A DNA stretch of 64,000 nt from a phage, in the NCBI GenBank assembly GCA_025829515.1, contig GCA_025829515.1_4865.1; one strand, 5' to 3'. Each line of letters opens with the position of its first letter. The first letter of the stretch is position 1. This document shows positions 15,161 through 52,713 of this stretch, piece by piece. The notes under the pieces were generated by a model. That model did no database searches. It was not told where the DNA came from and was given only the letters and a program-made list of their open reading frames with translations. A program made the position numbers and the translations under genes.

Positions 15161-15171
15161 GAGGTTCGAGC

Positions 15172-15539: not shown

Positions 15540-18283
15540 TAGAGGACGTTGTCTGGGTTGTCGTCGGTAGTTCCTTCACCGCCTTCTGTGCCTTCCGTTC
15601 CCTCGGTAGTTGTTTCCGTGGTTTCGGTCGACTCAGTAGTTTCCTCTGTACTATCGCCACCGGTGCCGTTATCCGTATCGAGATCGAGGTCTAAATCATC
15701 GTCACCCCCACCGCCGAGATCCCCATCATCACCACCAGTGTCACCGCCCGCATCAAAACCACCACCGAATCCGCCGGAAGCATCATTAGGATCAAGGTCG
15801 GCATTCTTCGCTAACGTTTCCAGTCGTCCGGTGAAACGTTTCGCCAATTGAATCAGCGTTTTCGAAGCAGCCATCGCTTCATCAGTCATCATGGTGATGT
15901 TGTCCTGACGAGAATCATCGTCGTAAACCAGATCGAAGAAGTCGGTTTCAATACCTTGTTTACGCAGCCAGTTGCGCGTATAGAAGGACTTGATCATCGT
16001 CTTCAGATCGTTCGGGTCCATCGAGATGCCTTCTTGCTGGAGTTGCGCAGCAATGTCATCCGTTACAACCAGATCAGCCAGCTTCTCAAAGAACTCCGTA
16101 CGTTTATCGAACAGCTCCATCTGCGAAGCTGCTGCCGATGTGTCGGGTGGTGGTAAGGTTACTTTCATACCGTTGATAAACGCAGCCAGATACTCAGAGA
16201 CCTTTTTCGTAATCTGGTCAGTAGTCATCCCATTGCCGTTAGCATTGATGTACTCTGCAATGATTTTAATCATCGCTGATTGCAACGACGGAGAGGCCAA
16301 CATCCCATTAACTACGTAACGTGTCAGTGGCTTAGAGAGAATCTCTTGCTTCTTAACAACCTGCTGGGTGACCAGTAACGATTTAGAGAAGATCTGTGAA
16401 GCAAACTCGATGTTCTCGGGGGTCATTACCAGGTCAGGGTCAACACCTGCGATGTGACAAGTGCGACGTAACAGACCTTCGTCGAAATCCTTATCCGGGT
16501 ATTTATAATCCGGCGTAGTGTCCGACACAGACACTTTGGTACTACCGTAGTAGTCGTTACCAATAACGTTAAACGCAATACCTGCGTTTGTCGTCATTGC
16601 CCAGGTGTCGTTCATGTCCCCCCACATCGGTTGACGACGGTTATAGGAGTTCATGATGTCTGTTTTCAGCTGGTCAATTGTTTTCTGACCGTTCATGTCG
16701 TCTGGTGCCAACTCAATGTCGTACTGCATGTGACGTGCAGAGTTCAGCACCGCAGAGTTCATGGTAGCGAACAACAGCGCCATACGGACAGTAGAGATAA
16801 CGAACGAGCGTTCGGTAATAGATACACCGATACCATCTTCATCAAAGTCCGTGGCAAAATAGCAAAGGTTTTCCGCAGGAATATAAATAACCTGCGTATG
16901 ACGTTTTGCCAGATGGCGCGCCAGCATGATACGGCTGAACGTTTCGGTTACTGTCATGCTAATCTCAGCACCACCCAACGCCTCACCCAACGCTTTTGTC
17001 AGCTGGTCTTCAGCAATCTCACCATAACGCGCTGTTAAGCGGTTAGCAATGTCTGGTGTGATTCGGGTTGTGTTGCCCATCCCCAGATTCGCGCGGTTGA
17101 TTGTCGAATCTACCATACCGTCGTTGTTCAGGTAGTTCATGAAGTTCGCATCCCCGTAAAGTGTGGAACGCGAGTTAATGAAGTTACCCATTTCGTCAAC
17201 GATGGCCAGATAACCTATGGGGTTACGAACATCGTCTCCGATAACGAGTGGGAGTGTGGACTCTGCTGGCAGTAATCGTTCCGTGTATTCGATTTTGTTG
17301 GCATCGGAGAAACTCATCTTCGGTACTTCGCCGTAAAGCTTTTGCTCAGGCGTTTTCTGGTACGCTTCGTTGAGGTCGCCGATGTTGATTAAACCGAGTT
17401 TTGCCTTCTCTTGTTCGCTGTCTGTGAACTGGTCAGCGTTATACTCTGACGCACCTGTCGGCGTAGAAGGTTGTTCATATGCGTACTGCTCTAACTGACC
17501 GAACAGGCCGGTGCGAGCATTCTCCTGTGCCACACGGCGATAAGCCTCTGGTAGCAGGGTAATACGCGGGTTGTCGGTGATAACGATATCCAGGGAAGCT
17601 AACATACCGTCTGCTTTAAACGGACTGTTAGGGGCTGCTGCAAAGTTAAGTTTAATGGTTTGTGGCTTGGTGGGCTTGTCAGCGCCACGTGCACGACCCA
17701 GAATACTTTCTACGCCAACCTTCGGTTTGTTTTCACCGCCAATCTTGCCCAGGATACCCAACTGACGTTCAAAGAAGTCAGATTGGCTACGGCGCAACGA
17801 TTCGGTTGCAACAGACGGCTTTAAGCCGAAGAGTTCATCGAATCCGGTATCTGAAATCAGCAACACCGGGCTCGCGCCTTTGGATTTCAGTGCATCGTAA
17901 ATCCACTGATACAGTTTGTTGGGTAACTGGCGCGTGTGGTCATGGAATTCACGCACAGGTTCCAATAACTGCTGACGCAGGTCGATCGGGATATCAGCCA
18001 CGTTGTCGTAAATCAGCGTGGTGTTAATCAAATCTTTTGTGGACAGGAGCGAGGAGGTCGCGATGGTAACAATGACCTCTAACTCAGGGAGCGCATCAAA
18101 GATACGTTCGGCATTTTTAACGGTGCGAATGCGGCTACTCGCAATGCCCGTGAGTTCTGTACGGGTTGGTGTAACGCCGCCATCTTCACGCTTACCGCGT
18201 TGCTGCTGAGCCGACGGGCTCGTGGACTTACGCAGTATGGCAGCTACCGCGGGGTCGCCCGTTAATTTACTAATATCTTCCAT
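15539..18283 (-). CDS. large virion-type protein with acidic disordered C-terminal tail, candidate portal (914 aa)
   Basis: Long - strand ORF; GGAGA 6 nt before ATG; C-terminal about 80 aa low-complexity acidic (DLDLDLD, TEETTESTETTETTTEGTEG). Portal assignment is inference from size and composition only. Confidence 0.3.
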   Translation of the reverse strand: MEDISKLTGDPAVAAILRKSTSPSAQQQRGKREDGGVTPTRTELTGIASSRIRTVKNAERIFDALPELEVIVTIATSSLLSTKDLINTTLIYDNVADIPIDLRQQLLEPVREFHDHTRQLPNKLYQWIYDALKSKGASPVLLISDTGFDELFGLKPSVATESLRRSQSDFFERQLGILGKIGGENKPKVGVESILGRARGADKPTKPQTIKLNFAAAPNSPFKADGMLASLDIVITDNPRITLLPEAYRRVAQENARTGLFGQLEQYAYEQPSTPTGASEYNADQFTDSEQEKAKLGLINIGDLNEAYQKTPEQKLYGEVPKMSFSDANKIEYTERLLPAESTLPLVIGDDVRNPIGYLAIVDEMGNFINSRSTLYGDANFMNYLNNDGMVDSTINRANLGMGNTTRITPDIANRLTARYGEIAEDQLTKALGEALGGAEISMTVTETFSRIMLARHLAKRHTQVIYIPAENLCYFATDFDEDGIGVSITERSFVISTVRMALLFATMNSAVLNSARHMQYDIELAPDDMNGQKTIDQLKTDIMNSYNRRQPMWGDMNDTWAMTTNAGIAFNVIGNDYYGSTKVSVSDTTPDYKYPDKDFDEGLLRRTCHIAGVDPDLVMTPENIEFASQIFSKSLLVTQQVVKKQEILSKPLTRYVVNGMLASPSLQSAMIKIIAEYINANGNGMTTDQITKKVSEYLAAFINGMKVTLPPPDTSAAASQMELFDKRTEFFEKLADLVVTDDIAAQLQQEGISMDPNDLKTMIKSFYTRNWLRKQGIETDFFDLVYDDDSRQDNITMMTDEAMAASKTLIQLAKRFTGRLETLAKNADLDPNDASGGFGGGFDAGGDTGGDDGDLGGGGDDDLDLDLDTDNGTGGDSTEETTESTETTETTTEGTEGTEGGEGTTDDNPDNVL

Positions 18284-18294
18284 TGGGGTCTCCG

Positions 18295-20478
18295 ATGCAG
18301 AGATTTAACATTTTTCGTGACCAGGCTATCCAGTTAGCGAAATCCCTGATTGTCAAATCAGAGAGCATCGCACAACAGATGAACCTGGCAATAACCAAAA
18401 ACGGCGGTTTCGTTTCCGAGAACCGTGAGACGTGGCGGTATTACCTACACTTAGCAGGTAAACGACATGCAATCGACAAGCCGATATACATTACGTCACT
18501 CGACACGCAAGAGCAGATAGAGTTAACGACGCAGAACCTCTCCCGTCATAAAAAGACCTCAAACGTATATCGTTCTAACCCGGAGTATATCGACGACTTA
18601 ATCGCCGAGTATCCGGACTACGCAGTATACATTCGCGGTACTTTCAATCCGATTGATATTGCATACGCGATACGTGTCGATGACTGCTCAATTTTGTATT
18701 ACGATCCTGCTTTAGTTGAACCGCAGGAGACGTCGTTAATTACACATATTGAGAACTTTATTCGTGCAGCACATGTGCGTTTCATGGCTGATGGCTGGAA
18801 AGTTCACAACGACTGTTTCGTACTGGCCTTTTACATGCAGCAGTACCCGGTGTGGCCGGGGCTTATCATGTACATCCGCAAACGGTTACAGTTTACGACC
18901 GAAACGCACTCCTACTACGTGACCGAGTTCTTGGCTTCGCACCAAGAACTGCACGAGTTCATGCCGTACCTGACCCTCAAGCAGAAATTCACACTGTATC
19001 GCAATATCCGTTACTGGGAACGTAACTCTGGTAAGGAAGAAATCTTTACCTGGATGATTGACACCCTGCTGACGGGTTGGGGTATGCCTGCTGTTGGATA
19101 TAAGGTCGCCCAGCAGATTCACGACCCGACGACGGGCAGTGACGATGACCTGACACCACTCCCGATCGGCTACCAGTCATCGCTTAACTATACTGAACGT
19201 GACTCGGGCCGTGACCTGGACATTGTTAGCACAACTGACATCATCCAGAAAGAAATCAATCTGGCGTACAATAACCCAGTGCACGAACCTGACTATCAGG
19301 AAGACCTCGATCGGCGTTTGAGCTTGACGCAGTATCCGAACCTGCCAACGAAGTTAGTTGAGGTAACGGCGATTGACCCAGAGGCCATCGAACGTTGGGA
19401 ATTTATGCATGGCTTGTTCAACGAGTGGATGCATATCGTGGCACGTGGACAGTACAACATTTACCACGAAATTCTTAACCCAACGAACGGGGATACGCTA
19501 AAGCTCACTTCAAAAGAGCTGCTGGCACTGTTCTTGTATGCGAGCTTCAAAGGTTATTCTGGCGTAGCACTGGATAAAATCCCGGTGTGGAATGTGTTTG
19601 GTGTGTTAATCAAACGCTGGGTTGGTTTTGATGAGATGGTGCAGCATCTGCCAAGCTCATGGCCCGGCCGTTTTAATGCGCTGATTAACTATTACACGGA
19701 CACGCATCATGAAGTTATCGGTAATTTGATGTCTGCAGATGAGTTGTACGATGAAATCAGCGAAATCATGGTGCAGAAGCGTCGTCGTTACCGTTACTCG
19801 TATAATCGACACAAGCTAGCCGACCGTGCTGCCGGCACAATGCTGTTTACCTACCATTACCGTGACTATAAGTGCGATCTTGACCTACCTTACCGCGATT
19901 ACGACGAGTTCTTCAAAACGTTTGGTTTTGATTACGAGTTAGTCTCCGCGGAAACCTGGCAGGACATCGCCACCGACGCTTTAAACGTGGCCACTAATCT
20001 GGAAACACGTGCGTCTGTCTCACAAGCTGAAATACAACGCGCGATGGTGCGGTTAATGACGAAACTCTCGTCGTATACTGTCCATTTTGCCGCACGTATG
20101 GGTTCTGACACCTACGATGTCACCGACCCAGTCATCCCGATTCTGGATGATATTCTCGCAGAGGCTGCCGATACAACAAATATCATTTACCCTCTGACAG
20201 ACGTGCAGCGCGTGAGCCGTAGTTCATTCATGACGACGGATAAACCCATCCCTGTCGCTCCCGTGATAAAGGAAATGGCAATCCCGCAACGTATTAAGTT
20301 GCGGATGAATGTCTACCCTGGTATCCGTGTGAAGGTCGAGCAGGATGTTGTGGTCGATACGGTACAACCGCCTATCGACGTTGTCCGTGTGCGGACGTCA
20401 TTTGAGGAGTGGACGCTTGCCGAGCGCGTGGCCGACCGTGACATGGATGGCTTCCGGCTAGACCAATTACCAAAGTGA
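18295..20478 (+). CDS. hypothetical protein (727 aa)
   Basis: ATG at 18295 (track start 18283 is TTG coinciding with the divergent gene start); no Walker A, so not a terminase large subunit. Confidence 0.7.
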   Translation: MQRFNIFRDQAIQLAKSLIVKSESIAQQMNLAITKNGGFVSENRETWRYYLHLAGKRHAIDKPIYITSLDTQEQIELTTQNLSRHKKTSNVYRSNPEYIDDLIAEYPDYAVYIRGTFNPIDIAYAIRVDDCSILYYDPALVEPQETSLITHIENFIRAAHVRFMADGWKVHNDCFVLAFYMQQYPVWPGLIMYIRKRLQFTTETHSYYVTEFLASHQELHEFMPYLTLKQKFTLYRNIRYWERNSGKEEIFTWMIDTLLTGWGMPAVGYKVAQQIHDPTTGSDDDLTPLPIGYQSSLNYTERDSGRDLDIVSTTDIIQKEINLAYNNPVHEPDYQEDLDRRLSLTQYPNLPTKLVEVTAIDPEAIERWEFMHGLFNEWMHIVARGQYNIYHEILNPTNGDTLKLTSKELLALFLYASFKGYSGVALDKIPVWNVFGVLIKRWVGFDEMVQHLPSSWPGRFNALINYYTDTHHEVIGNLMSADELYDEISEIMVQKRRRYRYSYNRHKLADRAAGTMLFTYHYRDYKCDLDLPYRDYDEFFKTFGFDYELVSAETWQDIATDALNVATNLETRASVSQAEIQRAMVRLMTKLSSYTVHFAARMGSDTYDVTDPVIPILDDILAEAADTTNIIYPLTDVQRVSRSSFMTTDKPIPVAPVIKEMAIPQRIKLRMNVYPGIRVKVEQDVVVDTVQPPIDVVRVRTSFEEWTLAERVADRDMDGFRLDQLPK

Positions 20479-23215: not shown

Positions 23216-23854
23216 ATGCAATTACAATTTCGTCAACGGTCTGTACTACTACCGTTTAGCGCTATATTAGGTTCGTTTACCAAAATGCTGTCTGTGGATT
23301 TTACTGCAGCTGAGAAAGAAGCGCTGTTATTGGCGGCAGTCGAAGAAGTATTGTGGGAGGCGTTTTACGTAGTGCCGTTTCGTAGATGCTTAAACGCCCC
23401 GTATGTTGAAGGGCAGTTTGTCAGCGCGCTTTCCGCTGCGATTACCAAACGTAAACTAAATGCCATGGCGCATGTCAAAGAGATCACCGCGCAACGAGGA
23501 CGGATATTCGCTACCATCAGAAATGTGTTAATTAAAGAAGGGTTTCTTGCAGATGCGTTAGGTCCCGAGGTTCCTTGGGAACCGGGTCATCCACCGCGTC
23601 AGTTTGACCACGGGTACAAGTTAAGTATAATTATGCCACGCGGTAAGCGTGACGTCTCATTGGGGAAATGGTTACAGATAAGTTGGGTTCGTCCTACTAT
23701 CGATTGGCAAGAAATGTCGGTCAATCGCTATCTGGAACACCTGGCAAAAACACCGGCACAGTTTCACCGTTCAACAATCCTGCCGCTACACTTGCTGTTA
23801 AAACCGTCCCTGTCATTGGCAGAAGCCAGATACCTGCTTAGTGGAGAGAAGTGA
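23216..23854 (+). CDS. hypothetical protein (212 aa), coupled to downstream GNAT
   Basis: AAGGA upstream; stop overlaps the GNAT start (ATGA). Confidence 0.7.
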   Translation: MQLQFRQRSVLLPFSAILGSFTKMLSVDFTAAEKEALLLAAVEEVLWEAFYVVPFRRCLNAPYVEGQFVSALSAAITKRKLNAMAHVKEITAQRGRIFATIRNVLIKEGFLADALGPEVPWEPGHPPRQFDHGYKLSIIMPRGKRDVSLGKWLQISWVRPTIDWQEMSVNRYLEHLAKTPAQFHRSTILPLHLLLKPSLSLAEARYLLSGEK

Positions 23855-24336
23855 TGCTTGTTATTAATGTGGTCGAGGATAAGATTCCCGCGAATGTTTA
23901 TCCTGAACTGGTTGAATGGGTACGCGACTTAAACAGTATTCGCGAGGAGCCTATTAAACTCACGATGTTTGTTGAGGATGATATCGTGCGGGGAATCATG
24001 GCATGGGAACCTGGCCATTTGGTCTATATGGTTGTGCCCGAAGAATCGCGGCGGGGCGGTGTCGGCAGATTTATGCTTAAGTATCTTCAGCAGAACTCCG
24101 ATCGTAAACACATCAGCTGTCGTGTTCACCCGACCAACATTCCCGCGCTAGGATTCTTTCACCAACAAGGCTTCCAGATTGACCGATGGTATATTGCTGC
24201 TGACGGCCAACGGTATTTTCGTATGACGAACTACAATGTTATTTCGTCACACACGCCGCCGGAGGAAAAGCTTTTAACTCATTACGCTGAAAGCGTTCCC
24301 ATTTTTCTTTCGATGGCAGAAGGTCATTTCGTCTAA
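23851..24336 (+). CDS. GNAT-family N-acetyltransferase (161 aa)
   Basis: Acetyl-CoA loop-like RRGGVGRFML and C-terminal GFFHQQGFQI. Confidence 0.65.
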   Translation: MMLVINVVEDKIPANVYPELVEWVRDLNSIREEPIKLTMFVEDDIVRGIMAWEPGHLVYMVVPEESRRGGVGRFMLKYLQQNSDRKHISCRVHPTNIPALGFFHQQGFQIDRWYIAADGQRYFRMTNYNVISSHTPPEEKLLTHYAESVPIFLSMAEGHFV

Positions 24337-26925: not shown

Positions 26926-28059
26926 ATGTCGACGCTCGATTTAGATTTAGAAGTCCTGACTGACGACTACGATCGCCTGGTCGCACTCGAAGGTCTGGGA
27001 GTTAAGCCCGACTTCCCTGCGGTTTGCGCGATCCGTCAGCGTTGGTGCTTAACCGACGACGGTGAAGATATGTTGGTTGCTCGTGAATCGCGCGAAGCGA
27101 TGGAGCGTGCTCAGTTTATGACTGATACTGACCCGCGGGCTGGCATCCATCGCGCAGCAGGGCGCATTACTGCGAAAGCTGTTAAAGGTACTGGAAAGTT
27201 AGTGGGTGCTGGACTAGGTGCAACCGCAAAGGGCGCGGGTAAACTCTCGAAAAAGCTCGCATTACGCTTTTACGATTTCGCGGAAGCGCTAGCGAAAGAA
27301 CAAGCCGACCGTTTGAAAGAAATAACTTCGAAAGCTGCTTTCATGGAACGTAAGCTCAATAAGCTTAAAACGCGAATGTCACTGCTAGATGACCACAAAA
27401 CACTCGCTGCGGTCGACGTTCACACGAGTAGCTGGACGTCTAAAATTTGCTTTGAAGATCGACCCGATTTTGAAGCGTGTGTTAAGTTTTCTAAACAAAC
27501 AAATGCGTACGAAGGCGTCGTGCAAAAGTACACGGTTTACACACGCACCGCTCTGAAGAAAAGCAAAGCATTCGAAGGGCCGGGCTTAAAACAAATCAGC
27601 AAGTCCACGAACTGGGCAGTTAAGCGTGCTGCTGGGTTGCTTGGCATCATCGATCCCTTTAAAAAGGTGGAAGCTTTTCCTGTCCCTGGAAATATCGTTG
27701 TGGTTGAGCACCATAGTGGTAAGGTCAGTTGGGCAATTGCGCGTGACGGTGAGTATGGTGAAACCATTAAATCGCTGGATATGCATCAGTGTGGGAAAGC
27801 AATAGAGGCTGTGGAAGCACTTATCAAATCTATTGCTGCACGTGGAACAAAGAACCGTGTTGTGGGCTACACCGGCATTTACGAAGAAGTGGAAGCGATG
27901 AAGTCCGAGCTTAAGAACCTAGAAGGGGATGAGCTGAAGGAGGCCACGTTACGTTACCGTAATGCAATGGCGATGGAAGACGCTTTCACCACGGCGTTGG
28001 TACGTGTGGCGGAGGGTCTAATGGAGTGGACGAAGCAATCGTTGGCTGAGGTGAAATGA
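26926..28059 (+). CDS. hypothetical protein (377 aa), coupled to downstream GNAT
   Basis: AAGGAG upstream; stop overlaps the GNAT start (ATGA). Confidence 0.7.
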   Translation: MSTLDLDLEVLTDDYDRLVALEGLGVKPDFPAVCAIRQRWCLTDDGEDMLVARESREAMERAQFMTDTDPRAGIHRAAGRITAKAVKGTGKLVGAGLGATAKGAGKLSKKLALRFYDFAEALAKEQADRLKEITSKAAFMERKLNKLKTRMSLLDDHKTLAAVDVHTSSWTSKICFEDRPDFEACVKFSKQTNAYEGVVQKYTVYTRTALKKSKAFEGPGLKQISKSTNWAVKRAAGLLGIIDPFKKVEAFPVPGNIVVVEHHSGKVSWAIARDGEYGETIKSLDMHQCGKAIEAVEALIKSIAARGTKNRVVGYTGIYEEVEAMKSELKNLEGDELKEATLRYRNAMAMEDAFTTALVRVAEGLMEWTKQSLAEVK

Positions 28060-28523
28060 TGAAAATTGTTTTTGTCACCAAGCCCAACTCTCCGTATGGA
28101 AAGAAATATTACGCCGACTTGTTAGGACTACACAACAAGTTATACGACGATCAGAAAATAAAACTTGCCGACTTAAACGGTCGTGAAGGGTTTAATCAAA
28201 TCTCAAAACTGGAGGAGGTTTGGGGTGAAGGTACGCTGTGCGCTTGCGCCGTTGATGACCGTGGTGTGGCTGTTGGCTTCATCACCTTTGGCTACACCAA
28301 AAAGGGACAACGTTTCCTCTGGGTATATAACTTTTTTGTAGATGAATCGGTTCGTTCACAAGGCGTTGGTCATGAACTGATCGAAGCCGTAGAGAACTAT
28401 GGCAAATCAAAAGGTTGCGCGTGGATGCAGCTTAACGTGCTCGGTAATAACGACCGTGCTATTGCGTTTTATGAACGTTTCGGATTCCGAACTGAATACC
28501 AGGATATGGTAAAGGAGCTTTAA
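28056..28523 (+). CDS. GNAT-family N-acetyltransferase (155 aa)
   Basis: VRSQGVGHELIEAV acetyl-CoA loop and C-terminal AIAFYERFGF. Confidence 0.7.
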   Translation: MMKIVFVTKPNSPYGKKYYADLLGLHNKLYDDQKIKLADLNGREGFNQISKLEEVWGEGTLCACAVDDRGVAVGFITFGYTKKGQRFLWVYNFFVDESVRSQGVGHELIEAVENYGKSKGCAWMQLNVLGNNDRAIAFYERFGFRTEYQDMVKEL

Positions 28524-30169: not shown

Positions 30170-30793
30170 ATGTTAAACTCAGTGGCGCTGGATGGTCCAG
30201 ATTTTTCTGGCAAATCAACACTCGCTATAACGATTCAAGCGATGTTGCGCTCCGCTGGCGTTAATGCCATCATCGTCAATCACCCGACGAATACCACTGA
30301 AGCCGGTATTAGTGCACGCTCTCTGGTTATCCAGCACGCCTCTAATGAACGTATTGCCAAAGCGATGTGTCTGGATTTCCAATACACGATGGATTTCGTT
30401 GTACCAGAGCACGATGTCGTTATTTTTGACCGTTTTTGTCAATCGACTATTGTCTACCAGGGCGTAGATGGTAAAGGGGAAGTTTTCCGTTCGCGGGTAT
30501 TAGACCACATTAACGCACCAAAGCTTTACGTGGCAACCGATGTATCTTACGAAACCGCCACAGAACGCTTTAAGAAGCGCGTAGAAGCACAAGGTAAGCA
30601 CTGGGATGATGAGGTACTGACAGCGAAGTATCTGCGCACACAGACCGATTGGGACGCCTTACGCGACCATTACCGTTTTGCGTTCCACATCACTACAGAC
30701 GGTGGTGATAAGTTTCCACTGATGCGAATTACAGCAGACGACGATATGGCGTTACAAGCCGCCCGTATCGTTGAACGTATTCTGGCAGGTTAG
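30170..30793 (+). CDS. tmk: thymidylate kinase-like nucleoside monophosphate kinase (207 aa)
   Basis: P-loop LDGPDFSGKST near the N-terminus and DRFCQSTIVYQG matching the Tmk DR(H/Y)xxSxxAYQG motif; internal ATG 30170 chosen because track start 30056 lies inside the terminator. Confidence 0.6.
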   Translation: MLNSVALDGPDFSGKSTLAITIQAMLRSAGVNAIIVNHPTNTTEAGISARSLVIQHASNERIAKAMCLDFQYTMDFVVPEHDVVIFDRFCQSTIVYQGVDGKGEVFRSRVLDHINAPKLYVATDVSYETATERFKKRVEAQGKHWDDEVLTAKYLRTQTDWDALRDHYRFAFHITTDGGDKFPLMRITADDDMALQAARIVERILAG

Positions 30794-30798
30794 TTGTA

Positions 30799-30836
30799 CC
30801 CCTCTTACCTTCGGGTAAGAGGGCATTGTCTTTTTT
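30799..30836 (+). terminator. rho-independent terminator (UUCG tetraloop)
   Basis: ccctcttacc-ttcg-ggtaagaggg, identical 24-nt hairpin to 4313-4336, then a T-run. Confidence 0.8.
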
Positions 30837-30880
30837 ACAGATCAGAACAGTCCTATGCTTTTTGCTTCCAGTCCACTAAA

Positions 30881-30908
30881 TTTCAGATATATATTACCTT
30901 AGTGAGAG
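30881..30908 (+). promoter_or_regulatory. conserved promoter-like motif, copy 2
   Basis: TTTCAGATATATATTACCTTAGTGAGAG; same downstream leader (aatcgactattaatctaaaggagtatt) as copy 1. Confidence 0.55.
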
Positions 30909-30955
30909 TTGTCGTTAAACTCTCTAATCGACTATTAATCTAAAGGAGTATTCTA

Positions 30956-31321
30956 ATGCGTTTTAAACATCAAACCGTTGTGTTGGCAAAGAAAGCATTT
31001 CTGGTTCGTCTCTCTTACATTATTACTCGTGTCACTGCGAAGGATGTTACGCAGAAAGACATTGCATTGTTGGTAGGCTGCTCACCGTCACAAATCTCTG
31101 CGATTAAAAATGAACGCGAGAAAGCCGTGACTATCGAAACTCTGATGCGTGTTGCCGATACACTGCGCCTGAATTACGAAATCGTTTACCGTTCCATCAA
31201 CGGCAAATGCCGCCATAGCTTCAAAATTGAATCCTGCATCGACTACATGAACAACTGTCCTATCCGGGTACGAGAAACAGGACTTAAAGTCATGGCACGT
31301 AAACCTTCTGCAGTGATGTAA
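30956..31321 (+). CDS. XRE-type helix-turn-helix DNA-binding protein (121 aa)
   Basis: QKDIALLVGCSPSQISAIKNE matches the HTH_XRE pattern; first gene after promoter cassette copy 2. Confidence 0.55.
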   Translation: MRFKHQTVVLAKKAFLVRLSYIITRVTAKDVTQKDIALLVGCSPSQISAIKNEREKAVTIETLMRVADTLRLNYEIVYRSINGKCRHSFKIESCIDYMNNCPIRVRETGLKVMARKPSAVM

Positions 31322-32427: not shown

Positions 32428-32430
32428 TCA

Positions 32431-32468
32431 TTAAGGGGTCTTCGGACCCCTTAATTTTTTGTCTTTTT
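32431..32468 (+). terminator. rho-independent terminator (UUCG tetraloop)
   Basis: ttaaggggtc-ttcg-gaccccttaa plus ttttttgtcttttt. Confidence 0.85.
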
Positions 32469-32516
32469 ACGCGTTATCCTCATGTTGTGACAGCATTACC
32501 TTTTGAGGGCATTACA

Positions 32517-33518
32517 ATGAAAACTGTGGCTAAATTGTTCCGCAGCAGCATTCGCTCTGCCGAGTTCCAAAATAACGTCGGTACCGATACTGTACGAGCA
32601 CGCCGCCTAAAAGAGTTTCTAAAGGACGAGACTTATTCTGTTTACGTGGTCCGGAATAAAGAAACCTGGGAGGGTTATTTAGTGGCCACCTATCGACACG
32701 GTGACCCTACACTAACCTGTCACTATTTTGAGGAGTTTGTACCTGGGGCGTTCGATAAAGTTGGTTTGGCCCTTGTGCTCGACCATACCGGATTCGAATA
32801 TATGTCGTGCCCAGCACCTACTGACGATGTTGAACAAAAACTGGTCGAAAAAGGGTTTGTTCTTTCAGATATCGTTTGGGCATGTCATTCTAAACTGTTT
32901 GACAAAGTAATCACCGCATCAGAAATCAAGATTATTTCTGGTGATGCATACGCAGAACTTACCAAGGAAGATAAAGACGTTATCCTGAATTTGATTAGCG
33001 GTGCAATTTGCGAAGAGTTAGAGTACGATGTGCGCGGCTACTATACACACATTGGTCCGTTAGCAGAAACAGTAATAGCAAGAATTCAGCACGCTAATGT
33101 GGAGACTGCAATTTGGCGAGACGGTCATGATATCGTCGGTATTGCCCAGATGCGCTTGGTTACACCAGGCGTCGTTGAACTTTCTGGTTTAACCGTTGCA
33201 CCTACGCACCGTAAACGTGGCATTGGTCGCCGGCTAATGGGCGCGCTATTCGATTTCGCACAACGTCATTCCGACCAAGTCTATATTGAAACAGCTGCTG
33301 ATAATAATCCAGCAAATCACCTGTACGGCAACATCTTACGTTGCAAGCAGGTACTGCGTACACTAACGTTGAAACGCGATCCTGAACTTATTAGCTGGAA
33401 ACGGGTGAATGGGAACCGCGCCGATCGAGTGCTGAAAGAAGAACCTAGCATTCCGGTGGAGACTACAACCAGGCTGACTATCAGTGATATGTTTCAATCT
33501 GGCATGAGAGGATGTTAA
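32517..33518 (+). CDS. two-domain protein with C-terminal GNAT acetyltransferase domain (333 aa)
   Basis: C-terminal VELSGLTVAPTHRKRGIGRRLMGALFDFA is a GNAT acetyl-CoA-binding motif; N-terminal about 200 aa unassigned. Confidence 0.6.
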   Translation: MKTVAKLFRSSIRSAEFQNNVGTDTVRARRLKEFLKDETYSVYVVRNKETWEGYLVATYRHGDPTLTCHYFEEFVPGAFDKVGLALVLDHTGFEYMSCPAPTDDVEQKLVEKGFVLSDIVWACHSKLFDKVITASEIKIISGDAYAELTKEDKDVILNLISGAICEELEYDVRGYYTHIGPLAETVIARIQHANVETAIWRDGHDIVGIAQMRLVTPGVVELSGLTVAPTHRKRGIGRRLMGALFDFAQRHSDQVYIETAADNNPANHLYGNILRCKQVLRTLTLKRDPELISWKRVNGNRADRVLKEEPSIPVETTTRLTISDMFQSGMRGC

Positions 33519-33521: not shown

Positions 33522-34340
33522 GTGATAAAACCAATTTTAAAATGGATGGGTGGTAAGAGTCGTGTACTGCCCGAGCTGCTACAGGTGTTTCCGGATGCTG
33601 AGTATTTCGTTGAACCTTTTGTGGGCGCAGGGTCAGTGTTTTTAAACACTAAATACCCGAACTATATTCTCGGCGACACGAACCCGGACTTAATCGAGTT
33701 ACTGACCATGGCGCGCGATCGTCCGGAAGCGCTGATTCTGGAAGCAAAGGCGCTCTTTGCAAATGGGACGGACCGCGGTCTCTACATGGAACGGCGCGAG
33801 GGATTTAACAGCGAAGCAACCACGGGGAAACCTAATCTCCAGCGCGCCGCGATGTTCCTGTATCTTACACGTCATGGTTACAATGGTTTGTGCAGATACA
33901 ATCAGTCGGGTGGGTTTAACGTGCCCTATGGTCAACACCCGAACGGTGTCTATTTCCCTGAAGAGGAAATTCTGGCGTGGGCAAAACGTTGTTCGGAAAC
34001 CAACGTCGAGCTGCTCTGCGCGGACTTCCGCGACATCCTAAATAAGTGCCCATCTAACGCTGTGATATACGCCGACCCGCCCTACATCCCACTTTCGGAT
34101 ACGGCTAAACATGCGCAGTATCACAGCAAAGAATTTTCACAAGCTGACCACCGCGAGTTAGCGAAACTTTTAAAACAACAAGCTGCCGATGGCAATAAGG
34201 TCGTTCTGTCAAACGCAGATACGTTACTCACACGTGACATCTACTACGGTTTTACCTGGCGTGAAGTTCAGGTGGGCCGATATATGTCCGCCGATGCGAA
34301 TAAACGTAAAGCGGTGACAGAGCTAATCGGCACCTTATAA
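33522..34340 (+). CDS. dam: Dam-type DNA N6-adenine methyltransferase (272 aa)
   Basis: Dam signature blocks LKWMGGK, VEPFVGAGSVFLNT, LYLTRHGYNGLCRYN, FNVPYG and catalytic DPPY; GTG start. Confidence 0.92.
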   Translation: MIKPILKWMGGKSRVLPELLQVFPDAEYFVEPFVGAGSVFLNTKYPNYILGDTNPDLIELLTMARDRPEALILEAKALFANGTDRGLYMERREGFNSEATTGKPNLQRAAMFLYLTRHGYNGLCRYNQSGGFNVPYGQHPNGVYFPEEEILAWAKRCSETNVELLCADFRDILNKCPSNAVIYADPPYIPLSDTAKHAQYHSKEFSQADHRELAKLLKQQAADGNKVVLSNADTLLTRDIYYGFTWREVQVGRYMSADANKRKAVTELIGTL

Positions 34341-34349: not shown

Positions 34350-35153
34350 ATGCAACTATTTAATCTATACGGTATGGACAAAAATGACCTGACCGTAGAG
34401 TTTAGTGGTCGATTGACCACCTTGGGGCAACTCCGTGAACGGATTCAAGATTTGCGACCCGTCGCAGACCAAGAAGACGATCATTGGTTAGTGTTGAGCA
34501 ATAGCGGTCGTGCGCAAATGTATTTTCGTGGATGTCGTTCAGGTATTGTTTACTACATCTACGAGTTGCACGTGCTTTCCGAGCCCCTGTTCCACGAGTG
34601 GAAGCGTTTAACGCGACTCCTGGAAGTGCAGATGCTTGATATCACCTGTTTTCCGCATGACACCGAACATGCGGCATTGTACCAACGTCTGGGGTTCGAA
34701 GCTGTAACGAAGCGTGTGGAGATTACTGTCAGTCCGAAATACGGTTTTACGTCAGACCCATCGGTTGTCCCGTTGGAGACATTGTCATTAGAACAAACCC
34801 AAGATGTTTGCTATCTAATGCGACCTACGCTAAAAGACGCAGGAACGCGTGAGATGTTGGGTGAATTAGCAAATGGTTTTGTCTCTGCGTTCGTGGGGCT
34901 GCACGGCCAGAAACCGTTTTCATTAATGCTTTATAAGGAGTTCCCGAAGAGCATCATTACTGAGCAATTCTGCTGCCAAACTTTTGACCCGGTTGCTTAC
35001 TCGGTAGAGTTTCTAAAACACTACCACGCCATTTTGCATTTGGCGGGACAGAAAGGTAAGAAGGTCAACATGGGCGTTGCGATAGAGCACGAGTTTCCTT
35101 CTATCGAAGGGTTAGAGTATCGTGTAATCACGCATCACTACACCCTTGCGTAA
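34350..35153 (+). CDS. hypothetical protein (267 aa)
   Basis: ORF in operon; contains AALYQRLGFE, weakly GNAT-like. Confidence 0.65.
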   Translation: MQLFNLYGMDKNDLTVEFSGRLTTLGQLRERIQDLRPVADQEDDHWLVLSNSGRAQMYFRGCRSGIVYYIYELHVLSEPLFHEWKRLTRLLEVQMLDITCFPHDTEHAALYQRLGFEAVTKRVEITVSPKYGFTSDPSVVPLETLSLEQTQDVCYLMRPTLKDAGTREMLGELANGFVSAFVGLHGQKPFSLMLYKEFPKSIITEQFCCQTFDPVAYSVEFLKHYHAILHLAGQKGKKVNMGVAIEHEFPSIEGLEYRVITHHYTLA

Positions 35154-35162: not shown

Positions 35163-35975
35163 ATGCTGAGAGTTATCGAACGCACGGAGAGGATTCTGGA
35201 CCGAACGTGGTTGGAAGACCGTAAAGCGTTATCGTTGTTAAACGATATCGATCCTTCCACGTTACAAGATGAACGTCGTCTTTACTACCGAATCTTTGAA
35301 GTTTTCAGTCGGGACACAGTTGCGCCCGACGCGATCGTGCTCTGTCTGGACCACGGATACATGTTAGAAGTTATCAACATGGTTCGTGCTTTAGACGCCC
35401 AGTTAACCTCGCTTGCGGATGCTTTACTCCGCTCAGCGGGGTGTAACTACGCGATGCATTTTACTCGTTCGGAAGGGGACGAATATGCTCGCATGGGCTT
35501 TTGTTGCGAAACGATAAACTACCGCAAAATTAATACATCGGTGCCAAGTCACGATGAGGATTTCTGTGGGGATGTCAGTTCGCTGTTCGATAGTAAGAAA
35601 GCGTTCTTGGATTGGGTTAGAATGCTTTACGGTACAAGCTCTATCTACTCAACGCTCGTCATGGGCGGGAGGATGATGTCATGGCGGAGCAGCGATAGTT
35701 ACAAACTGACAGTGCTCTCACATCGTGGACAACGCTGGGTTATTGGTGGATGGTTTACCGCAGAAGGGGTGGTTACCCTAAGCCGTGAGGAGTTCGGACT
35801 GTTGATGCACTGTATCCAGTCTGAATTACCGGTGGGGGATGAATTAGTTTACACTTACCACCAATATACTGGGGGACCAGCCGCAATGTGGTTATTAGAA
35901 AACGGTTGGCTACCCGAAAGTTATGTGTACGGACGTGCCCTGAAAACTACTAATGGAGAAAATAATGCAAATTAA
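35163..35975 (+). CDS. hypothetical protein (270 aa)
   Basis: ORF with AAGGAG upstream. Confidence 0.65.
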   Translation: MLRVIERTERILDRTWLEDRKALSLLNDIDPSTLQDERRLYYRIFEVFSRDTVAPDAIVLCLDHGYMLEVINMVRALDAQLTSLADALLRSAGCNYAMHFTRSEGDEYARMGFCCETINYRKINTSVPSHDEDFCGDVSSLFDSKKAFLDWVRMLYGTSSIYSTLVMGGRMMSWRSSDSYKLTVLSHRGQRWVIGGWFTAEGVVTLSREEFGLLMHCIQSELPVGDELVYTYHQYTGGPAAMWLLENGWLPESYVYGRALKTTNGENNAN

Positions 35976-36243
35976 TCGTACAGTGTCGAAGTCTAAAGAA
36001 GTCGTTTACAACGTTGAGGACGGCGACGTAATGCAGTTCCGTGCCGTTATTGACGAACAGCACGTACTCCAAGTTGTTTATTCGAAAGAAGAGATGACTC
36101 GTGCACATAGTCGCGTGTTGGAAAAGCTCGTCGCGAAAGCCAAACAACGCGACGGCATTAAATCCTACAACGTTATGTACGGTTATCAGTTACGTGAGGT
36201 GGAAGGGGAGCTGTTAATCACCCCTGTTCCGGTAACGGCGTAA
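35965..36243 (+). CDS. hypothetical protein (92 aa)
   Basis: ATG at 35965 with GGAG upstream (alternative in-frame ATG at 35953). Confidence 0.55.
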   Translation: MQINRTVSKSKEVVYNVEDGDVMQFRAVIDEQHVLQVVYSKEEMTRAHSRVLEKLVAKAKQRDGIKSYNVMYGYQLREVEGELLITPVPVTA

Positions 36244-36283
36244 TTCGCCATTGTATGACCCTTAAACACCGTTGAGGTTAACT

Positions 36284-36766
36284 ATGGATATGATCGAATT
36301 AGGTCAGCTCCCTCAGCACGATTTCGATTTAGGCGTGCGCCATGAGGAAGGGGCCGACGCGAACACACTAATGGCCCGCTACTACGAGCTACTGACCGGT
36401 CAACCGTTGGACGATGAACACATCAACCGTTTTGAAAAACTGTTGGCACAACTCATCACCTCTAACGCAGAACGCATTGGCATGTTGAACGAAATGAACT
36501 TTGCCGATGTAGAGCCGTCTGACGCTCAGAAGATTCTTATCGATGGCCCTGTGCCAAGCGATGAAGTACAAGACCTTCTGGCAGGTATCCGTGCAGGCTT
36601 CGATGAAGCTGCTGAGAAATACGCGGAAGAGCTGGCAGATGTCGATTTGGCTGCGCCGGTTGACCCGAATCCATCTGCAGAGGAGACTGCAGCTGCGAAA
36701 TTGAAACTCGCACGCTTTATCTGTGCTGCTGTCTTGACAGACGACCGTGAAGAAAACCAACTGTAA
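36284..36766 (+). CDS. acidic hypothetical protein (160 aa)
   Basis: ATG at 36284 with GAGG 6 nt upstream (track start 36272 is TTG); Asp/Glu-rich. Confidence 0.6.
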   Translation: MDMIELGQLPQHDFDLGVRHEEGADANTLMARYYELLTGQPLDDEHINRFEKLLAQLITSNAERIGMLNEMNFADVEPSDAQKILIDGPVPSDEVQDLLAGIRAGFDEAAEKYAEELADVDLAAPVDPNPSAEETAAAKLKLARFICAAVLTDDREENQL

Positions 36767-36809
36767 GGCCCGCCTCCTTGCCCACGGGTGAGGAGGTCCC
36801 TTTTTATTT
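36767..36809 (+). terminator. rho-independent terminator
   Basis: cctcct ... aggagg stem with GC-rich loop, then tccctttttattt. Confidence 0.7.
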
Positions 36810-37845: not shown

Positions 37846-37888
37846 CCCCTACCTAACTTCGGTTAGGTAGGGCTCTTTTTATTTTTAA
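37846..37888 (+). terminator. rho-independent terminator (UUCG tetraloop)
   Basis: ccctacctaac-ttcg-gttaggtaggg plus ctctttttattttt. Confidence 0.85.
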
Positions 37889-51062: not shown

Positions 51063-51860
51063 ATGTCTTTTACTTCAAAACAGAATCTGCTAAAACTCAT
51101 CAACGAAGAGAATAAGATAAGCCCACCGCTTACCTTTGACGATGTTGATATCGGACTGCCGGAGGTTGTGTCAGTAGACGGTCGTGATTCGGAGGTAGTC
51201 CTTACCTCGAAGATGCGCGGTGATGAAGGTACGCAAGTGATTGTGGACTACCATCGTCGCCCATTAGAGGACTACCTTACAGGCGATGTTGCCTTTGGAG
51301 ACGAGGACGTGCAAACCACGCACGACTTACTCGCGGCGATTAACGAGCGTTTTAATCTGTCTATCTTACCTGAGGATATCGAAGATAACCCCATTGATGG
51401 ACAGACGCACACAGTCGTTGCTGTTGAAACTTCCCACGAGTGGCGAAGTCAAGCGGTCATCGAGCTGAAACCTGCTACACCTCTGGCAGAAGTAGTAACC
51501 AATACAGAGTTGAGCGGTCTTCTGTACCCGGATCACCAGGACATCCAGTTGGGTCAGGCGTATATCTATTCGCGTGACATCGATTGTAGCCACATCTCTC
51601 GTTTCCTGAGCCTCTTAGCGGTCGGTATCGAGGTAGATGACACGGCGTTGGCAATCGAACTCAACAAATGTGTTCCTGAGATTTGGGTAGCTGAAGATAC
51701 CCCATCCCCGTATAACCTGCGTGGTGCCACTGTCGTATTCGACGGCGTACCTGCAGACTTGCCGGGAGCAAATACGGCGTTCGCGAATGTCGTGTCAGTG
51801 CAACTGACCGATAAATGTACGAACTTCCAGGGCAGCCTCAACCTACACTTTAACAACTAG
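51063..51860 (+). CDS. paralog family 1 member 1, virion/fibre-like (265 aa)
   Basis: Shares an N-terminal domain of about 90 aa (LL..IN..N ... NT ... YDR ... L) and a C-terminal LH(F/Y)N motif with six downstream paralogs. Confidence 0.7.
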   Translation: MSFTSKQNLLKLINEENKISPPLTFDDVDIGLPEVVSVDGRDSEVVLTSKMRGDEGTQVIVDYHRRPLEDYLTGDVAFGDEDVQTTHDLLAAINERFNLSILPEDIEDNPIDGQTHTVVAVETSHEWRSQAVIELKPATPLAEVVTNTELSGLLYPDHQDIQLGQAYIYSRDIDCSHISRFLSLLAVGIEVDDTALAIELNKCVPEIWVAEDTPSPYNLRGATVVFDGVPADLPGANTAFANVVSVQLTDKCTNFQGSLNLHFNN

Positions 51861-51870
51861 GAGGGTATAG

Positions 51871-52713
51871 GTGTCTATTTACGATAAGCCCTCGAAAGAG
51901 ATGTTGTTAGATGCTATTAACCGACAGAACGGATTAACGGCCAATCCACTCACATGGGAGCAGGTTGCAACTGGCTTCCCTGAGTCTGTCCAAACGCCTG
52001 GCGCTGACCGGAATACGCGTGTGCTCTTATACGGGTTGAACGGCAAGGGCTACAAAGGCAACGTTACGCTCGAATACGACCGTATCGAAATGGAAATTCT
52101 GTTCAGGAACGTAATACCGGTAGTCGTTGCCGACCCGGTAAATAAACTCTCTGAGTTGTTGCCGTTTCTGAATGCGAAATACGGCTTGTCTTTAGTTGCC
52201 GATGATATCGTTGACCAGTCAGTAAAAGATTTGGGAGAAAGCTGGTTAATCGATGTGACTATTAAGCCCGGTTGCTTGGCCTGGCAAGGTGGTTTCCGTT
52301 TACGCTTTGCGAAGTTCTTCCCGAACTTGGCGGATGTGGTGACGGATGTTGACCTCAGCGCAATAATCGCACCGTTCGTGGTTGCTAGTAAACCACAGGC
52401 CGAGTATGTGGCGTATGGTTACGATTGGACTGAACTGCAAAAACAGTTCACCACCGATTGGGTTTACAACCGTGCAATCACTGCAGCGGATGTTGAGTTG
52501 TTGAATGAAGTGGTGCCATTAAAGTTTGCATATGTGACGGGGGCGAATGCGCAACCTGAACAAATTGCACTCCAAGGTGCACGATTTATGGGGATAACTT
52601 CAGTCACACCGAACGATAGTTACAACCCCGATTATCAGCGTGTGGCGATTATCAAGCTAGCTGCGGACAGCAACTACGCCGGTAATCTCATCCTTCATTA
52701 TCTCCCGATATAA
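51871..52713 (+). CDS. paralog family 1 member 2 (280 aa)
   Basis: GTG start with GAGGG 5 nt upstream; family N-terminal domain; ends LHYLPI. Confidence 0.7.
   Translation: MSIYDKPSKEMLLDAINRQNGLTANPLTWEQVATGFPESVQTPGADRNTRVLLYGLNGKGYKGNVTLEYDRIEMEILFRNVIPVVVADPVNKLSELLPFLNAKYGLSLVADDIVDQSVKDLGESWLIDVTIKPGCLAWQGGFRLRFAKFFPNLADVVTDVDLSAIIAPFVVASKPQAEYVAYGYDWTELQKQFTTDWVYNRAITAADVELLNEVVPLKFAYVTGANAQPEQIALQGARFMGITSVTPNDSYNPDYQRVAIIKLAADSNYAGNLILHYLPI

What the first reader, a model, noticed from the sequence alone, without database searches (positions are those of the whole stretch)
33522..34340. Dam methyltransferase in a virulent-phage context
All canonical Dam blocks including DPPY are present. 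Phage Dam orthologs commonly protect against GATC-targeting restriction systems or tune host mismatch repair and gene expression; combined with the GNAT cluster this looks like an anti-defence or host-takeover neighbourhood.
Basis: established knowledge. Interest (0 to 1): 0.35.

Follow-up and report, generated by a model that had tools for sequence, protein, structure and literature searches.

The report
Orphan Dam methylase, GATC-poor jumbo phage
The gene is an intact, conserved DNA adenine (GATC) methylase that public records already annotate in SPN3US-like giant Salmonella phages; the less ordinary point is that this phage group also avoids GATC more than any other four-letter word.

Summary
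The ORF at 33522-34340 (+, 272 aa) is a full-length Dam-family N6-adenine DNA methyltransferase (TIGR00571 255.6 bits against a cutoff of 114.85; 41% identical to E. coli Dam). It has the LKWxGGK motif, the AdoMet motif EPFVGAGS and the DPPY motif. Six of the seven EcoDam GATC-contact residues are conserved.

The window is a SPN3US-like (Seoulvirus) virulent jumbo phage. The gene is already annotated as a DNA adenine methylase in more than 20 genomes, so it is not new.

No restriction enzyme partner was found, so the methylase is an orphan. It is under strong purifying selection (dN/dS 0.028) and appears vertically inherited across several jumbo-phage genera.

GATC is the most depleted tetranucleotide (110 observed against 254 expected after codon-preserving shuffles, z = -13). 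Dam-less sister phages (CR5, Phobos) are depleted further (0.16-0.20). phiKZ, E. coli and the Dam-less coliphage Goslar are not depleted.

The "GNAT cluster" exists as a paralogue array, but its link to Dam is not conserved. An anti-defence role is plausible but untested.

The parts
33522..34340 (+). Dam-family (D12 class, alpha-type) N6-adenine DNA methyltransferase CDS, 272 aa, GTG start
33506..33512 (+). Shine-Dalgarno GAGAGGA, 9 nt upstream of the GTG start. There is nothing comparable before the internal ATG 33546 that public annotations use.
33537..33557 (+). N-terminal LKWMGGK motif. K7 corresponds to EcoDam K9, a first-base-pair contact.
33612..33641 (+). Motif I (FxGxG-type AdoMet-binding loop), EPFVGAGSVF. 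It is followed by the invariant acidic D52 at 33675-33677.
33870..33938 (+). Target-recognition hairpin RHGYNGLCRYNQSGGFNVPYGQH. It carries Y120, N121, L123, R125 and P135 (EcoDam Y119, N120, L122, R124, P134) and H139 in place of EcoDam Y138.
34074..34085 (+). Catalytic motif IV, DPPY
32430..32455 (+). Terminator-like hairpin (11-bp stem, TTCG loop, T run) closing the upstream transcription unit. It marks the likely 5' boundary of the six-gene unit that contains Dam.
32487..33518 (+). Two-domain protein with a C-terminal GNAT acetyltransferase domain, stopping 3 nt before the Dam start. Public records start it at 32517.
34350..35153 (+). 'dn1', 267 aa (phrog_9941). It is a divergent paralogue of the adjacent GNAT family, with no Pfam-detectable GNAT domain.
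35163..35975 (+). 'dn2', 270 aa (phrog_13677), function unresolved. It is found with Dam and dn1 in the three Dam-positive lineages sampled.
36772..36797 (+). Terminator-like hairpin (11-bp stem) marking the likely 3' boundary of the unit GNAT-Dam-dn1-dn2-35953..36243-36272..36766

Best explanation
The gene encodes an active, solitary (orphan) GATC-specific DNA adenine-N6 methyltransferase of the Dam family.

Shown: it has every sequence feature needed to bind AdoMet, flip the target adenine and read G-A-T-C as E. coli Dam does. It is intact and under purifying selection. It has been inherited vertically in a block of enterobacterial jumbo-phage genera. It has no nuclease partner.

Inferred: during infection it methylates the phage's own replicating DNA at the GATC sites that remain, so that progeny genomes carry the same mark as the DNA of their Dam-positive hosts. 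Those sites would then be poor substrates for nucleases that act on unmethylated GATC, namely MutH of methyl-directed mismatch repair and MboI/DpnII-type restriction enzymes. This works alongside an older second strategy, the purging of GATC from the genome. Lineages that carry Dam tolerate about twice as many GATC sites as their Dam-less sisters.

Approximate confidence: 0.9 that it is a functional GATC Dam, and 0.4-0.45 that self-protection of phage DNA is its main role.
For: Family membership and motifs.

GATC-contact residues, with roles taken from PMC4417163: K9, Y119, N120, L122, R124 and P134 are all conserved. Y138 is H here and in most homologues, including a chromosomal Dam from Orbus.

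Selection and inheritance: dN/dS is 0.028 against SPN3US. Full-length orthologues occur in every relative whose major capsid protein is at least 74% identical, at the same map position. Dam identity falls in step with capsid identity.

No nuclease partner: no restriction-enzyme or defence model hits in seven neighbours, and the best PADLOC model is the orphan methyltransferase.

GATC avoidance:
- In the window there are 114 sites against 249-300 expected, making GATC rank 1 of 256 tetramers.
- In CDS there are 110 against 254 +/- 11 after synonymous-codon shuffling, z = -13.
- One-base neighbours of GATC are at or above expectation.
- Ratios in Dam-positive relatives are 0.32-0.43 (window, Parshik, Asesino).
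- Ratios in the Dam-less Derbicusvirus are 0.16-0.20. CR5 was checked over its whole 224-kb genome.
- There is no depletion in phiKZ or in E. coli K-12.

Literature: GATC avoidance and MutH counter-selection in enterobacteriophages (PMC5014478). Phage Dam has been proposed as an anti-restriction function in SPN3US-like phages and jumbo phages generally (PMC6614189; PMC7824862).
Against: No methylation or expression data exist for this phage group.

SPN3US has a chimallin homologue and a shell-like lattice (PMC9365700). Its replicating DNA is therefore probably already shielded from host nucleases. DNA modification is reported as uncommon in such phages. Whether Dam even enters the shell is unknown.

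The Dam-positive versus Dam-less contrast in GATC density rests on a single phylogenetic split.

Goslar, a Dam-less nucleus-forming coliphage, keeps a normal GATC density (4.8 per kb; ratio 1.24 by base composition and 0.89 by codon shuffle). Unmethylated GATC is therefore not a general liability for this kind of phage.

If Dam protected fully, the continuing roughly 2.3-fold depletion would not be needed.

Over-expressed Dam can trigger the Salmonella retron-Sen2 toxin (bioRxiv 10.1101/2020.06.22.160242), so carrying Dam may also have a cost.
Confidence: 0.55

Rival explanations
1. Host-directed takeover. The enzyme acts mainly on host DNA in the cytoplasm. It would rapidly convert hemimethylated GATC to the fully methylated state, blinding MutH strand discrimination, releasing SeqA sequestration, or altering Dam-regulated host genes. 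The phage genome inside the shell would be largely untouched.
For: The SPN3US lineage probably replicates inside a chimallin shell, so a protein that is not imported would meet only host DNA. Dam dosage is known to disturb mismatch repair (PMC5014478). The gene lies in a block of non-structural genes of unknown function.
Against: This does not explain why GATC density in the phage genome tracks the presence of Dam. Host DNA in Dam-positive hosts is already mostly methylated, so the added effect would be small. There are no localisation or timing data.
Confidence: 0.15
2. Phage-internal epigenetic signal. GATC methylation marks particular sites that control packaging, replication or transcription timing, as Dam does at the phage P1 pac site (the P1 example is from my own knowledge).
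For: Long-term conservation of the gene. One local cluster of 7 GATC in 391 bp at 15682-16072 (scan P about 0.01 for the whole window and 0.05 within its region).
Against: The cluster is made of Asp-Leu codons inside a structural gene and is absent from the Parshik and CR5 orthologues. Only 4 of 114 GATC sites lie outside coding sequence, with no intergenic enrichment. Closely related Derbicusvirus phages manage without Dam.
Confidence: 0.1
3. Methylase half of a phage-borne GATC restriction-modification or exclusion module. One of the uncharacterised downstream genes (dn1 or dn2) would be the nuclease, used against unmethylated competitor phages.
For: Dam, dn1 and dn2 are adjacent, tightly spaced and found together in all three Dam-positive lineages sampled. 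They are not detected in Dam-less CR5 (whole genome) or in the Phobos region sampled. Their sizes (267-272 aa) recall the three-gene DpnII cassette (from my own knowledge).
Against: dn1 is a divergent paralogue of the neighbouring GNAT family. No Pfam, PADLOC or PDB-sequence match to any nuclease was found for dn1 or dn2. Their co-occurrence with Dam is equally well explained by lineage divergence of the GNAT1-GNAT2-CR5_101 array.
Confidence: 0.05
4. Passenger gene with no present fitness role, or an enzyme whose specificity has drifted away from GATC.
For: Relatives without Dam are viable. EcoDam Y138 is replaced by His. The score is below the cutoff of the E. coli Dam equivalog model.
Against: dN/dS is 0.028, and Dam is more conserved than its neighbours (70.5% against 42-65% in Asesino). 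The reading frame is intact in all good-quality genomes. His at the Y138 position is the majority state among homologues. R124, L122 and P134, which read the third and fourth base pairs, are conserved.
Confidence: 0.05

Closest known systems
E. coli Dam (EcoDam; PDB 2G1P, 4RTJ and others)
   Same: The fold family and domain order are the same: motif I, then the recognition hairpin, then DPPY. Identity is 41% over the full length. K9, Y119, N120, L122, R124 and P134 are conserved, so GATC is the predicted target.
   Different: It is not an orthologue: NF008152 scores 242 bits against a cutoff of 441. Y138 is His. The gene is phage-encoded, has a GTG start, and lies in a phage operon rather than the host dam locus.
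Dam methylases of other phages (T4 Dam, PDB 1YFJ; P1 Dam; Dams of temperate enterobacterial phages such as Salmonella phage SI7)
   Same: All are solitary phage-encoded GATC methylases without a cognate nuclease. The proposed roles are anti-restriction and saturation of methylation.
   Different: It is only distantly related to T4 Dam (E = 4e-10). Identity to prophage-type Dams is 46-49%, and those carry a Cys-rich C-terminal tail that is absent here. The host phage here is probably nucleus-forming and is itself GATC-poor.
M1.DpnII (DpnM, PDB 2DPM), the Dam-like methylase of a GATC restriction-modification system
   Same: Same family and predicted site, with a full-length alignment at E = 1e-40.
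   Different: DpnM works with a restriction enzyme. No nuclease was detected here.
GATC avoidance in enterobacteriophages (McClelland 1984; Deschavanne and Radman 1991, as cited in PMC5014478)
   Same: Strong, specific under-representation of GATC in phages of Dam-positive, MutH-positive hosts.
   Different: Here the avoidance coexists with a phage-encoded Dam. It is graded: weaker in Dam-carrying genera and stronger in Dam-less sister genera. It occurs in a jumbo-phage group thought to shield its DNA in a protein shell.

Membership tests
Dam family (D12 class N6-adenine DNA methyltransferase; TIGR00571 / PF02086) | Score above the curated profile cutoffs over the full domain | tested here: met
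   TIGR00571 scores 255.6 bits against 114.85, over residues 2-269. PF02086 scores 182.7 bits against 22, over profile positions 1-249 of 253.
Dam family (D12 class N6-adenine DNA methyltransferase; TIGR00571 / PF02086) | Catalytic motif IV (D/N)PP(Y/F) | tested here: met
   D185-P-P-Y188 is invariant in a 16-sequence alignment that includes EcoDam.
Dam family (D12 class N6-adenine DNA methyltransferase; TIGR00571 / PF02086) | AdoMet-binding motif I (FxGxG) and the following acidic residue, in alpha-class order: motif I, recognition region, then motif IV | tested here: met
   EPFVGAGS at residues 31-38, D52, the hairpin at 117-139, and DPPY at 185-188.
Dam family (D12 class N6-adenine DNA methyltransferase; TIGR00571 / PF02086) | GATC-reading residues of EcoDam (K9, Y119, N120, L122, R124, P134, Y138; roles from PMC4417163) | tested here: met
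   Six of seven are identical (K7, Y120, N121, L123, R125, P135). Y138 is H139, which is the majority state among homologues.
Dam family (D12 class N6-adenine DNA methyltransferase; TIGR00571 / PF02086) | Actual N6-methylation of adenine in GATC | not testable with these tools
   Needs DpnI/MboI digests or long-read methylation calling. No published data were found for this phage group.
Orthologue of chromosomal E. coli/Salmonella Dam (NCBIfam equivalog NF008152) | Score at or above the equivalog cutoff | tested here: not met
   242.2 bits against a cutoff of 441. Identity to EcoDam is 41%.
Type II restriction-modification system | A cognate restriction endonuclease encoded next to the methyltransferase | tested here: not met
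   Seven neighbours within the unit and upstream give no restriction-enzyme or defence hit in PADLOC. The best model for the methylase is 'orphan methyltransferase'. Pfam and PDB-sequence searches of dn1 and dn2 are empty. A very divergent nuclease cannot be excluded for dn2.
   Asesino has Dam without the upstream GNAT. CR5, EarlPhillipIV and Phobos have GNAT1-GNAT2 without Dam.
   32487-33518 has a clear GNAT domain. dn1 is related to that family by profile comparison (91.6%) but has no Pfam GNAT hit in any of 12 members. dn2 is unresolved. The AlphaFold model of dn1 was unusable, with pLDDT 40.5.

The most novel reading that the evidence does not exclude
In this clade the phage Dam and GATC purging may be two interchangeable answers to a GATC-directed host threat that still reaches a shell-forming jumbo phage. 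Because the chimallin shell would exclude host Dam, progeny DNA of Dam-less lineages would leave the cell unmethylated, and those lineages have had to purge GATC to about 0.16-0.20 of expectation. Lineages that import their own Dam mark their DNA as host-like and have relaxed to 0.32-0.43. If so, the vulnerable moment lies outside the shell (injection or the early vesicle stage), and Dam must be a selectively imported nuclear protein. Goslar is Dam-less yet GATC-normal, so this cannot be general. At most it is a property of the SPN3US/Erwinia/Derbicusvirus supergroup.
Probability: 0.15. Interest if true: 0.55.

Novelty: already known. Interest (0 to 1): 0.3.

Why it matters
The gene itself adds little. 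It is a textbook orphan Dam, already annotated in SPN3US, the SPFM phages and related Erwinia phages, and already suggested in print to counter restriction.

Three things are useful.

1. Annotation correction. The public Seoulvirus gene models start 8 codons too late and delete a DNA-contact lysine. This matters to anyone who clones or expresses the enzyme.

2. A testable contrast. Sister genera infect Dam-positive Enterobacterales with and without a phage Dam, and their GATC avoidance is graded. A Dam-less, GATC-normal coliphage (Goslar) serves as a counter-example. Together these could be used to ask what actually selects against GATC in phages. That question is described as unresolved in PMC5014478. 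They could also be used to ask whether DNA-modifying enzymes are imported into the phage nucleus.

3. A practical point for phage therapy. Dam over-expression is reported to trigger the Salmonella retron-Sen2 toxin, so carrying Dam could influence the host range of these candidate therapy phages.

Tried and rejected
1. GATC cluster at 15682-16072 as a Dam-dependent functional site. It has 7 sites in 391 bp (P about 0.01-0.05). It consists of Asp-Leu codons in a structural gene and is not conserved in the Parshik or CR5 orthologues. Rejected.

2. Six-base palindromes containing GATC (BamHI, BglII, PvuI, BclI sites) as the real target of avoidance. None is depleted beyond what the GATC count predicts. 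Rejected.

3. Codon usage or amino-acid composition as the cause of the depletion. The depletion persists after within-gene synonymous shuffling. Rejected.

4. AlphaFold2 model of dn1 from a 4-sequence alignment. Mean pLDDT was 40.5, so it was unusable and no fold search was run.

5. Profile searches of dn1 and dn2 against PDB sequences gave only spurious weak hits. Pfam at permissive E-values gave nothing.

6. The shallow 3-sequence dn1 profile against the GNAT family gave only 17% probability. It rose to 91.6% after adding distant relatives from the exhaustive search. dn2 stayed unresolved.

7. Sigma-70 promoter scan found fewer sites than in shuffled sequence (8 against 13.1). It is uninformative, because phiKZ-type phages use their own RNA polymerases.

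8. No tRNA and no Rfam family were found in the window.

9. Literature searches for experimental data on gp105/Dam of SPN3US found none.

10. The idea that every chimallivirus of a Dam-positive host must either carry Dam or purge GATC was refuted by Goslar.

Full report
WHAT IS THERE

- It matches Pfam PF02086 (D12-class N6-adenine DNA methyltransferase) at 1.3e-53 over almost the whole model.
- It matches NCBIfam TIGR00571 'dam' at 255.6 bits against a curated cutoff of 114.85.
- It matches PHROG 56 'DNA methyltransferase' at 1.6e-91.
- In PADLOC its best match is the 'orphan methyltransferase' model, at 1.7e-84.
- It falls below the cutoff of the E. coli Dam equivalog model (242 against 441 bits). 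It is therefore a Dam-family enzyme but not an orthologue of the chromosomal gene.
- Against solved structures, the best matches are E. coli Dam entries (2g1p, E = 4e-57, aligned over residues 4-270), then DpnM (1e-40), then T4 Dam (4e-10).

CATALYTIC AND RECOGNITION RESIDUES

I aligned the protein with EcoDam and 14 homologues. The invariant positions include:

- K7-W8-x-G10-G11-K12;
- E31-P-F-V-G35 (motif I);
- D52;
- N121, R125, P135;
- D185-P-P-Y188 (motif IV).

The structural paper PMC4417163 assigns roles in EcoDam. R124 reads the fourth base pair. L122 and P134 read the third. Y119 intercalates. N120 hydrogen-bonds a base. K9 and Y138 read the first base pair. Six of these seven residues are identical here. 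Y138 is His139, but His is the majority state among homologues, including a chromosomal Dam from Orbus. I checked the nucleotide coordinates of all motifs directly. The predicted target is therefore GATC, and the mechanism is the standard AdoMet-dependent, base-flipping N6-adenine methylation. This is inference from homology. No tool here can show activity.

START CODON

Every Seoulvirus record I opened annotates the gene from the internal ATG at window position 33546, giving 264 aa. That start would remove LKW, including the K9 equivalent. Four lines of evidence favour the GTG start:

- The GTG at 33522 has a GAGAGGA Shine-Dalgarno 9 nt upstream, whereas the ATG has none.
- Asesino has ATG at the codon homologous to the GTG.
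- Parshik also starts there, and its 'internal Met' is replaced by Val. Parshik's own annotation is full length.
- tblastn alignments cover residues 1-272 in all relatives.

GENOMIC CONTEXT

The 3.6 kb around the gene is 96-99% identical to SPN3US-like Salmonella, Escherichia and Proteus jumbo phages of about 240 kb, with SPLA5c the best match at 99.1%. These are classified in the genus Seoulvirus. The window also holds the major head protein, a polymerase, a DnaB-like helicase, virion and tail proteins. It has no tRNA and no Rfam family. SPN3US has a diverged chimallin homologue (gp244) and a shell-like lattice (PMC9365700), so this lineage is probably nucleus-forming. Two reviews note that DNA-modification genes are comparatively rare in such phages (PMC7824862; PMC13282480).

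The gene is packed 3 nt after the upstream ORF and 9 nt before the next one. Two strong terminator-like hairpins, at 32430-32455 and 36772-36797, bracket a six-gene unit: GNAT, Dam, dn1, dn2, 35953-36243 and 36272-36766.

THE 'GNAT CLUSTER'

Pfam finds GNAT domains at 23851-24336 (weak), 28056-28523 and the C-terminal half of 32487-33518. The two downstream ORFs give no Pfam hit even at E = 5.

An exhaustive profile search found only about a dozen clusters related to dn1. With those added, dn1 aligns to the adjacent two-domain GNAT family at 91.6% probability (E = 8e-7, 185 columns). No member has a Pfam-detectable GNAT domain, and the acetyl-CoA glycine motif is not matched. dn2 stays unresolved. 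An AlphaFold model of dn1 failed, with pLDDT 40.5.

Synteny shows that the array and Dam are independent:

- Parshik has GNAT-Dam-dn1-dn2.
- Asesino has Dam-dn1-dn2 without the first GNAT.
- CR5, EarlPhillipIV and Phobos have GNAT1-GNAT2-third paralogue at the same place, after thymidylate kinase, with no Dam.

Dam therefore sits inside an older array of GNAT-family paralogues. The cluster is real, but nothing links it functionally to Dam, and no neighbour resembles a known defence or restriction protein.

CONSERVATION

Full-length orthologues (272-274 aa) are present in every relative whose major capsid protein is at least 74% identical: Seoulvirus, SPAsTU/STsAS, pEa_SNUABM_29, Asesino/phiEaH2/Stratton, Machinavirus, Wellington/Kwan and Caitlin/ChrisDB. 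They lie at the same map position.

| Capsid identity (%) | Dam identity (%) |
|---|---|
| 100 | 99 |
| 91 | 79-85 |
| 86 | 70 |
| 75-77 | 53-55 |

The parallel decline fits vertical descent.

Against SPN3US, dN/dS is 0.028. Dam is also better conserved than its neighbours. The nearest relatives outside jumbo phages are 46-49% identical prophage-type Dams of Enterobacterales with a Cys-rich tail. Chromosomal Dams are 41-44% identical, so the donor is unresolved.

GATC occurs 114 times in 64 kb. Base composition predicts 249, and a second-order Markov model predicts 300. GATC is the most under-represented of all 256 tetramers.

After shuffling synonymous codons within each of 79 crude genes, the expectation in coding sequence is 254 +/- 11 against 110 observed (z = -13). 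This was the strongest effect among the motifs tested. One-base neighbours of GATC are at or above expectation, and six-base palindromes containing GATC are not specially avoided. The target of avoidance is therefore GATC itself. Only 4 sites lie outside coding sequence.

Codon-shuffle ratios:

| Genome or region sampled | Phage Dam | GATC observed/expected |
|---|---|---|
| This window | yes | 0.43 |
| Parshik | yes | 0.32 |
| Asesino | yes | 0.34 |
| Eowyn (a different, distant Dam) | yes | 0.35 |
| CR5 | no | 0.20 |
| Phobos | no | 0.16 |
| phiKZ | no | 0.95 |
| Goslar (100-130 kb region) | no | 0.89 |
| E. coli K-12 (host genome) | not applicable | 1.06 |

I confirmed that the whole 224-kb CR5 genome has no Dam homologue and has only 160 GATC sites (0.71 per kb, ratio 0.18). 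The whole 237-kb Goslar genome, from an E. coli nucleus-forming phage, also has no Dam but has a normal GATC density (4.8 per kb; ratio 1.24 by base composition, 0.69 by Markov model).

READING

GATC avoidance in phages of Dam-positive hosts is an old observation, attributed in part to MutH attack on unmethylated sites. Its cause is still described as unclear (PMC5014478).

The pattern here is clade-wide purging that is about twice as severe where the phage lacks Dam and is absent in a Pseudomonas relative. This fits the idea that unmethylated GATC is costly for this supergroup and that the phage Dam partly relieves the cost.

The support is limited:

- The Dam-positive versus Dam-less contrast is a single phylogenetic event.
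- Goslar shows that a Dam-less shell-forming coliphage can keep normal GATC density.
- The shell should already exclude host nucleases.
- Nothing is known about when Dam is made or where it goes.
- Dam over-expression triggers the Salmonella retron-Sen2 toxin by methylating its msDNA, so the gene may carry a cost in some hosts.

VERDICT

The gene is an already-annotated, ordinary orphan Dam.

The added value is the corrected start codon, the demonstration that the GNAT array and Dam are separable, and the graded GATC avoidance with its counter-example. Together these give a concrete experimental handle on why phages avoid GATC and on whether DNA-modifying enzymes enter the phage nucleus.

Noticed in passing
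window 1-64000 (sense strand of genes): Besides GATC, three other tetramers are depleted after codon-preserving shuffles: AATT (158 against 289, z = -10.5), TATG (163 against 264, z = -9.3) and CATA (62 against 114, z = -6.2). CATA and TATG are also low in Parshik, Asesino, CR5 and Phobos. TATG is the consensus core of phiKZ late (nvRNAP) promoters (PMC4666361), so this could reflect avoidance of spurious internal promoters. That idea was not tested.
   Followed up: partly
window 33522-33546; SPN3US NC_027402.1 96851-96875 and other Seoulvirus records: Public gene models for the Dam gene start at an internal ATG, 24 nt downstream of the likely GTG start. This removes the conserved LKW motif.
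   Followed up: yes
window 15682-16072 (inside minus-strand ORF 15539-18283, a virion structural protein): Seven GATC sites lie within 391 bp in an otherwise GATC-poor genome. They are made of Asp-Leu codons and are not conserved in the Parshik or CR5 orthologues.
   Followed up: yes
window 7000-18300 compared with 18300-64000: GATC depletion is weaker in the block holding the major head protein, polymerase and large structural genes (ratio 0.58) than in the rest of the window (0.33-0.38). The reason is unknown.
   Followed up: no
window 30800-30823, 32430-32455, 36772-36797, 37847-37872: A set of very similar strong hairpins (10-11 bp stems, mostly TTCG loops) is followed by a T run and then a TTTAC-like sequence. 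They look like unit boundaries and may combine a terminator with a phage promoter element.
   Followed up: no
window 51063-63876: A long run of similar-sized ORFs (about 265-470 aa). At least two of them (57188-58600 and 60557-61975) match the same virion-structural PHROG 3589. The syntenic CR5 region is annotated as ten consecutive 'virion structural proteins'. This looks like a paralogue array.
   Followed up: no
L005 (CR5) 35825-36712; L013 (Phobos) 30407-31243: The 'hypothetical' third gene after GNAT1 and GNAT2 in Derbicusvirus is related to the N-terminal, non-GNAT domain of the two-domain GNAT family (hhalign 92%, E = 6e-7). That locus is therefore a three-member paralogue array.
   Followed up: partly
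SPFM1, SPFM5, SPFM7, SPFM8, SPFM9, SPFM12, SPFM15, SPFM20 records (phages collection): Several SPFM records match this region only as about 40 short pieces. They yield fragmented, frameshift-like proteins for Dam and dn1. This looks like assembly or sequencing error rather than real gene loss.
   Followed up: no
Goslar MK327938.1, whole genome (L017-L022): This E. coli nucleus-forming jumbo phage has no Dam homologue and a normal GATC density (1138 sites, 4.8 per kb). This contrasts sharply with the SPN3US, Erwinia and CR5 group.
   Followed up: yes
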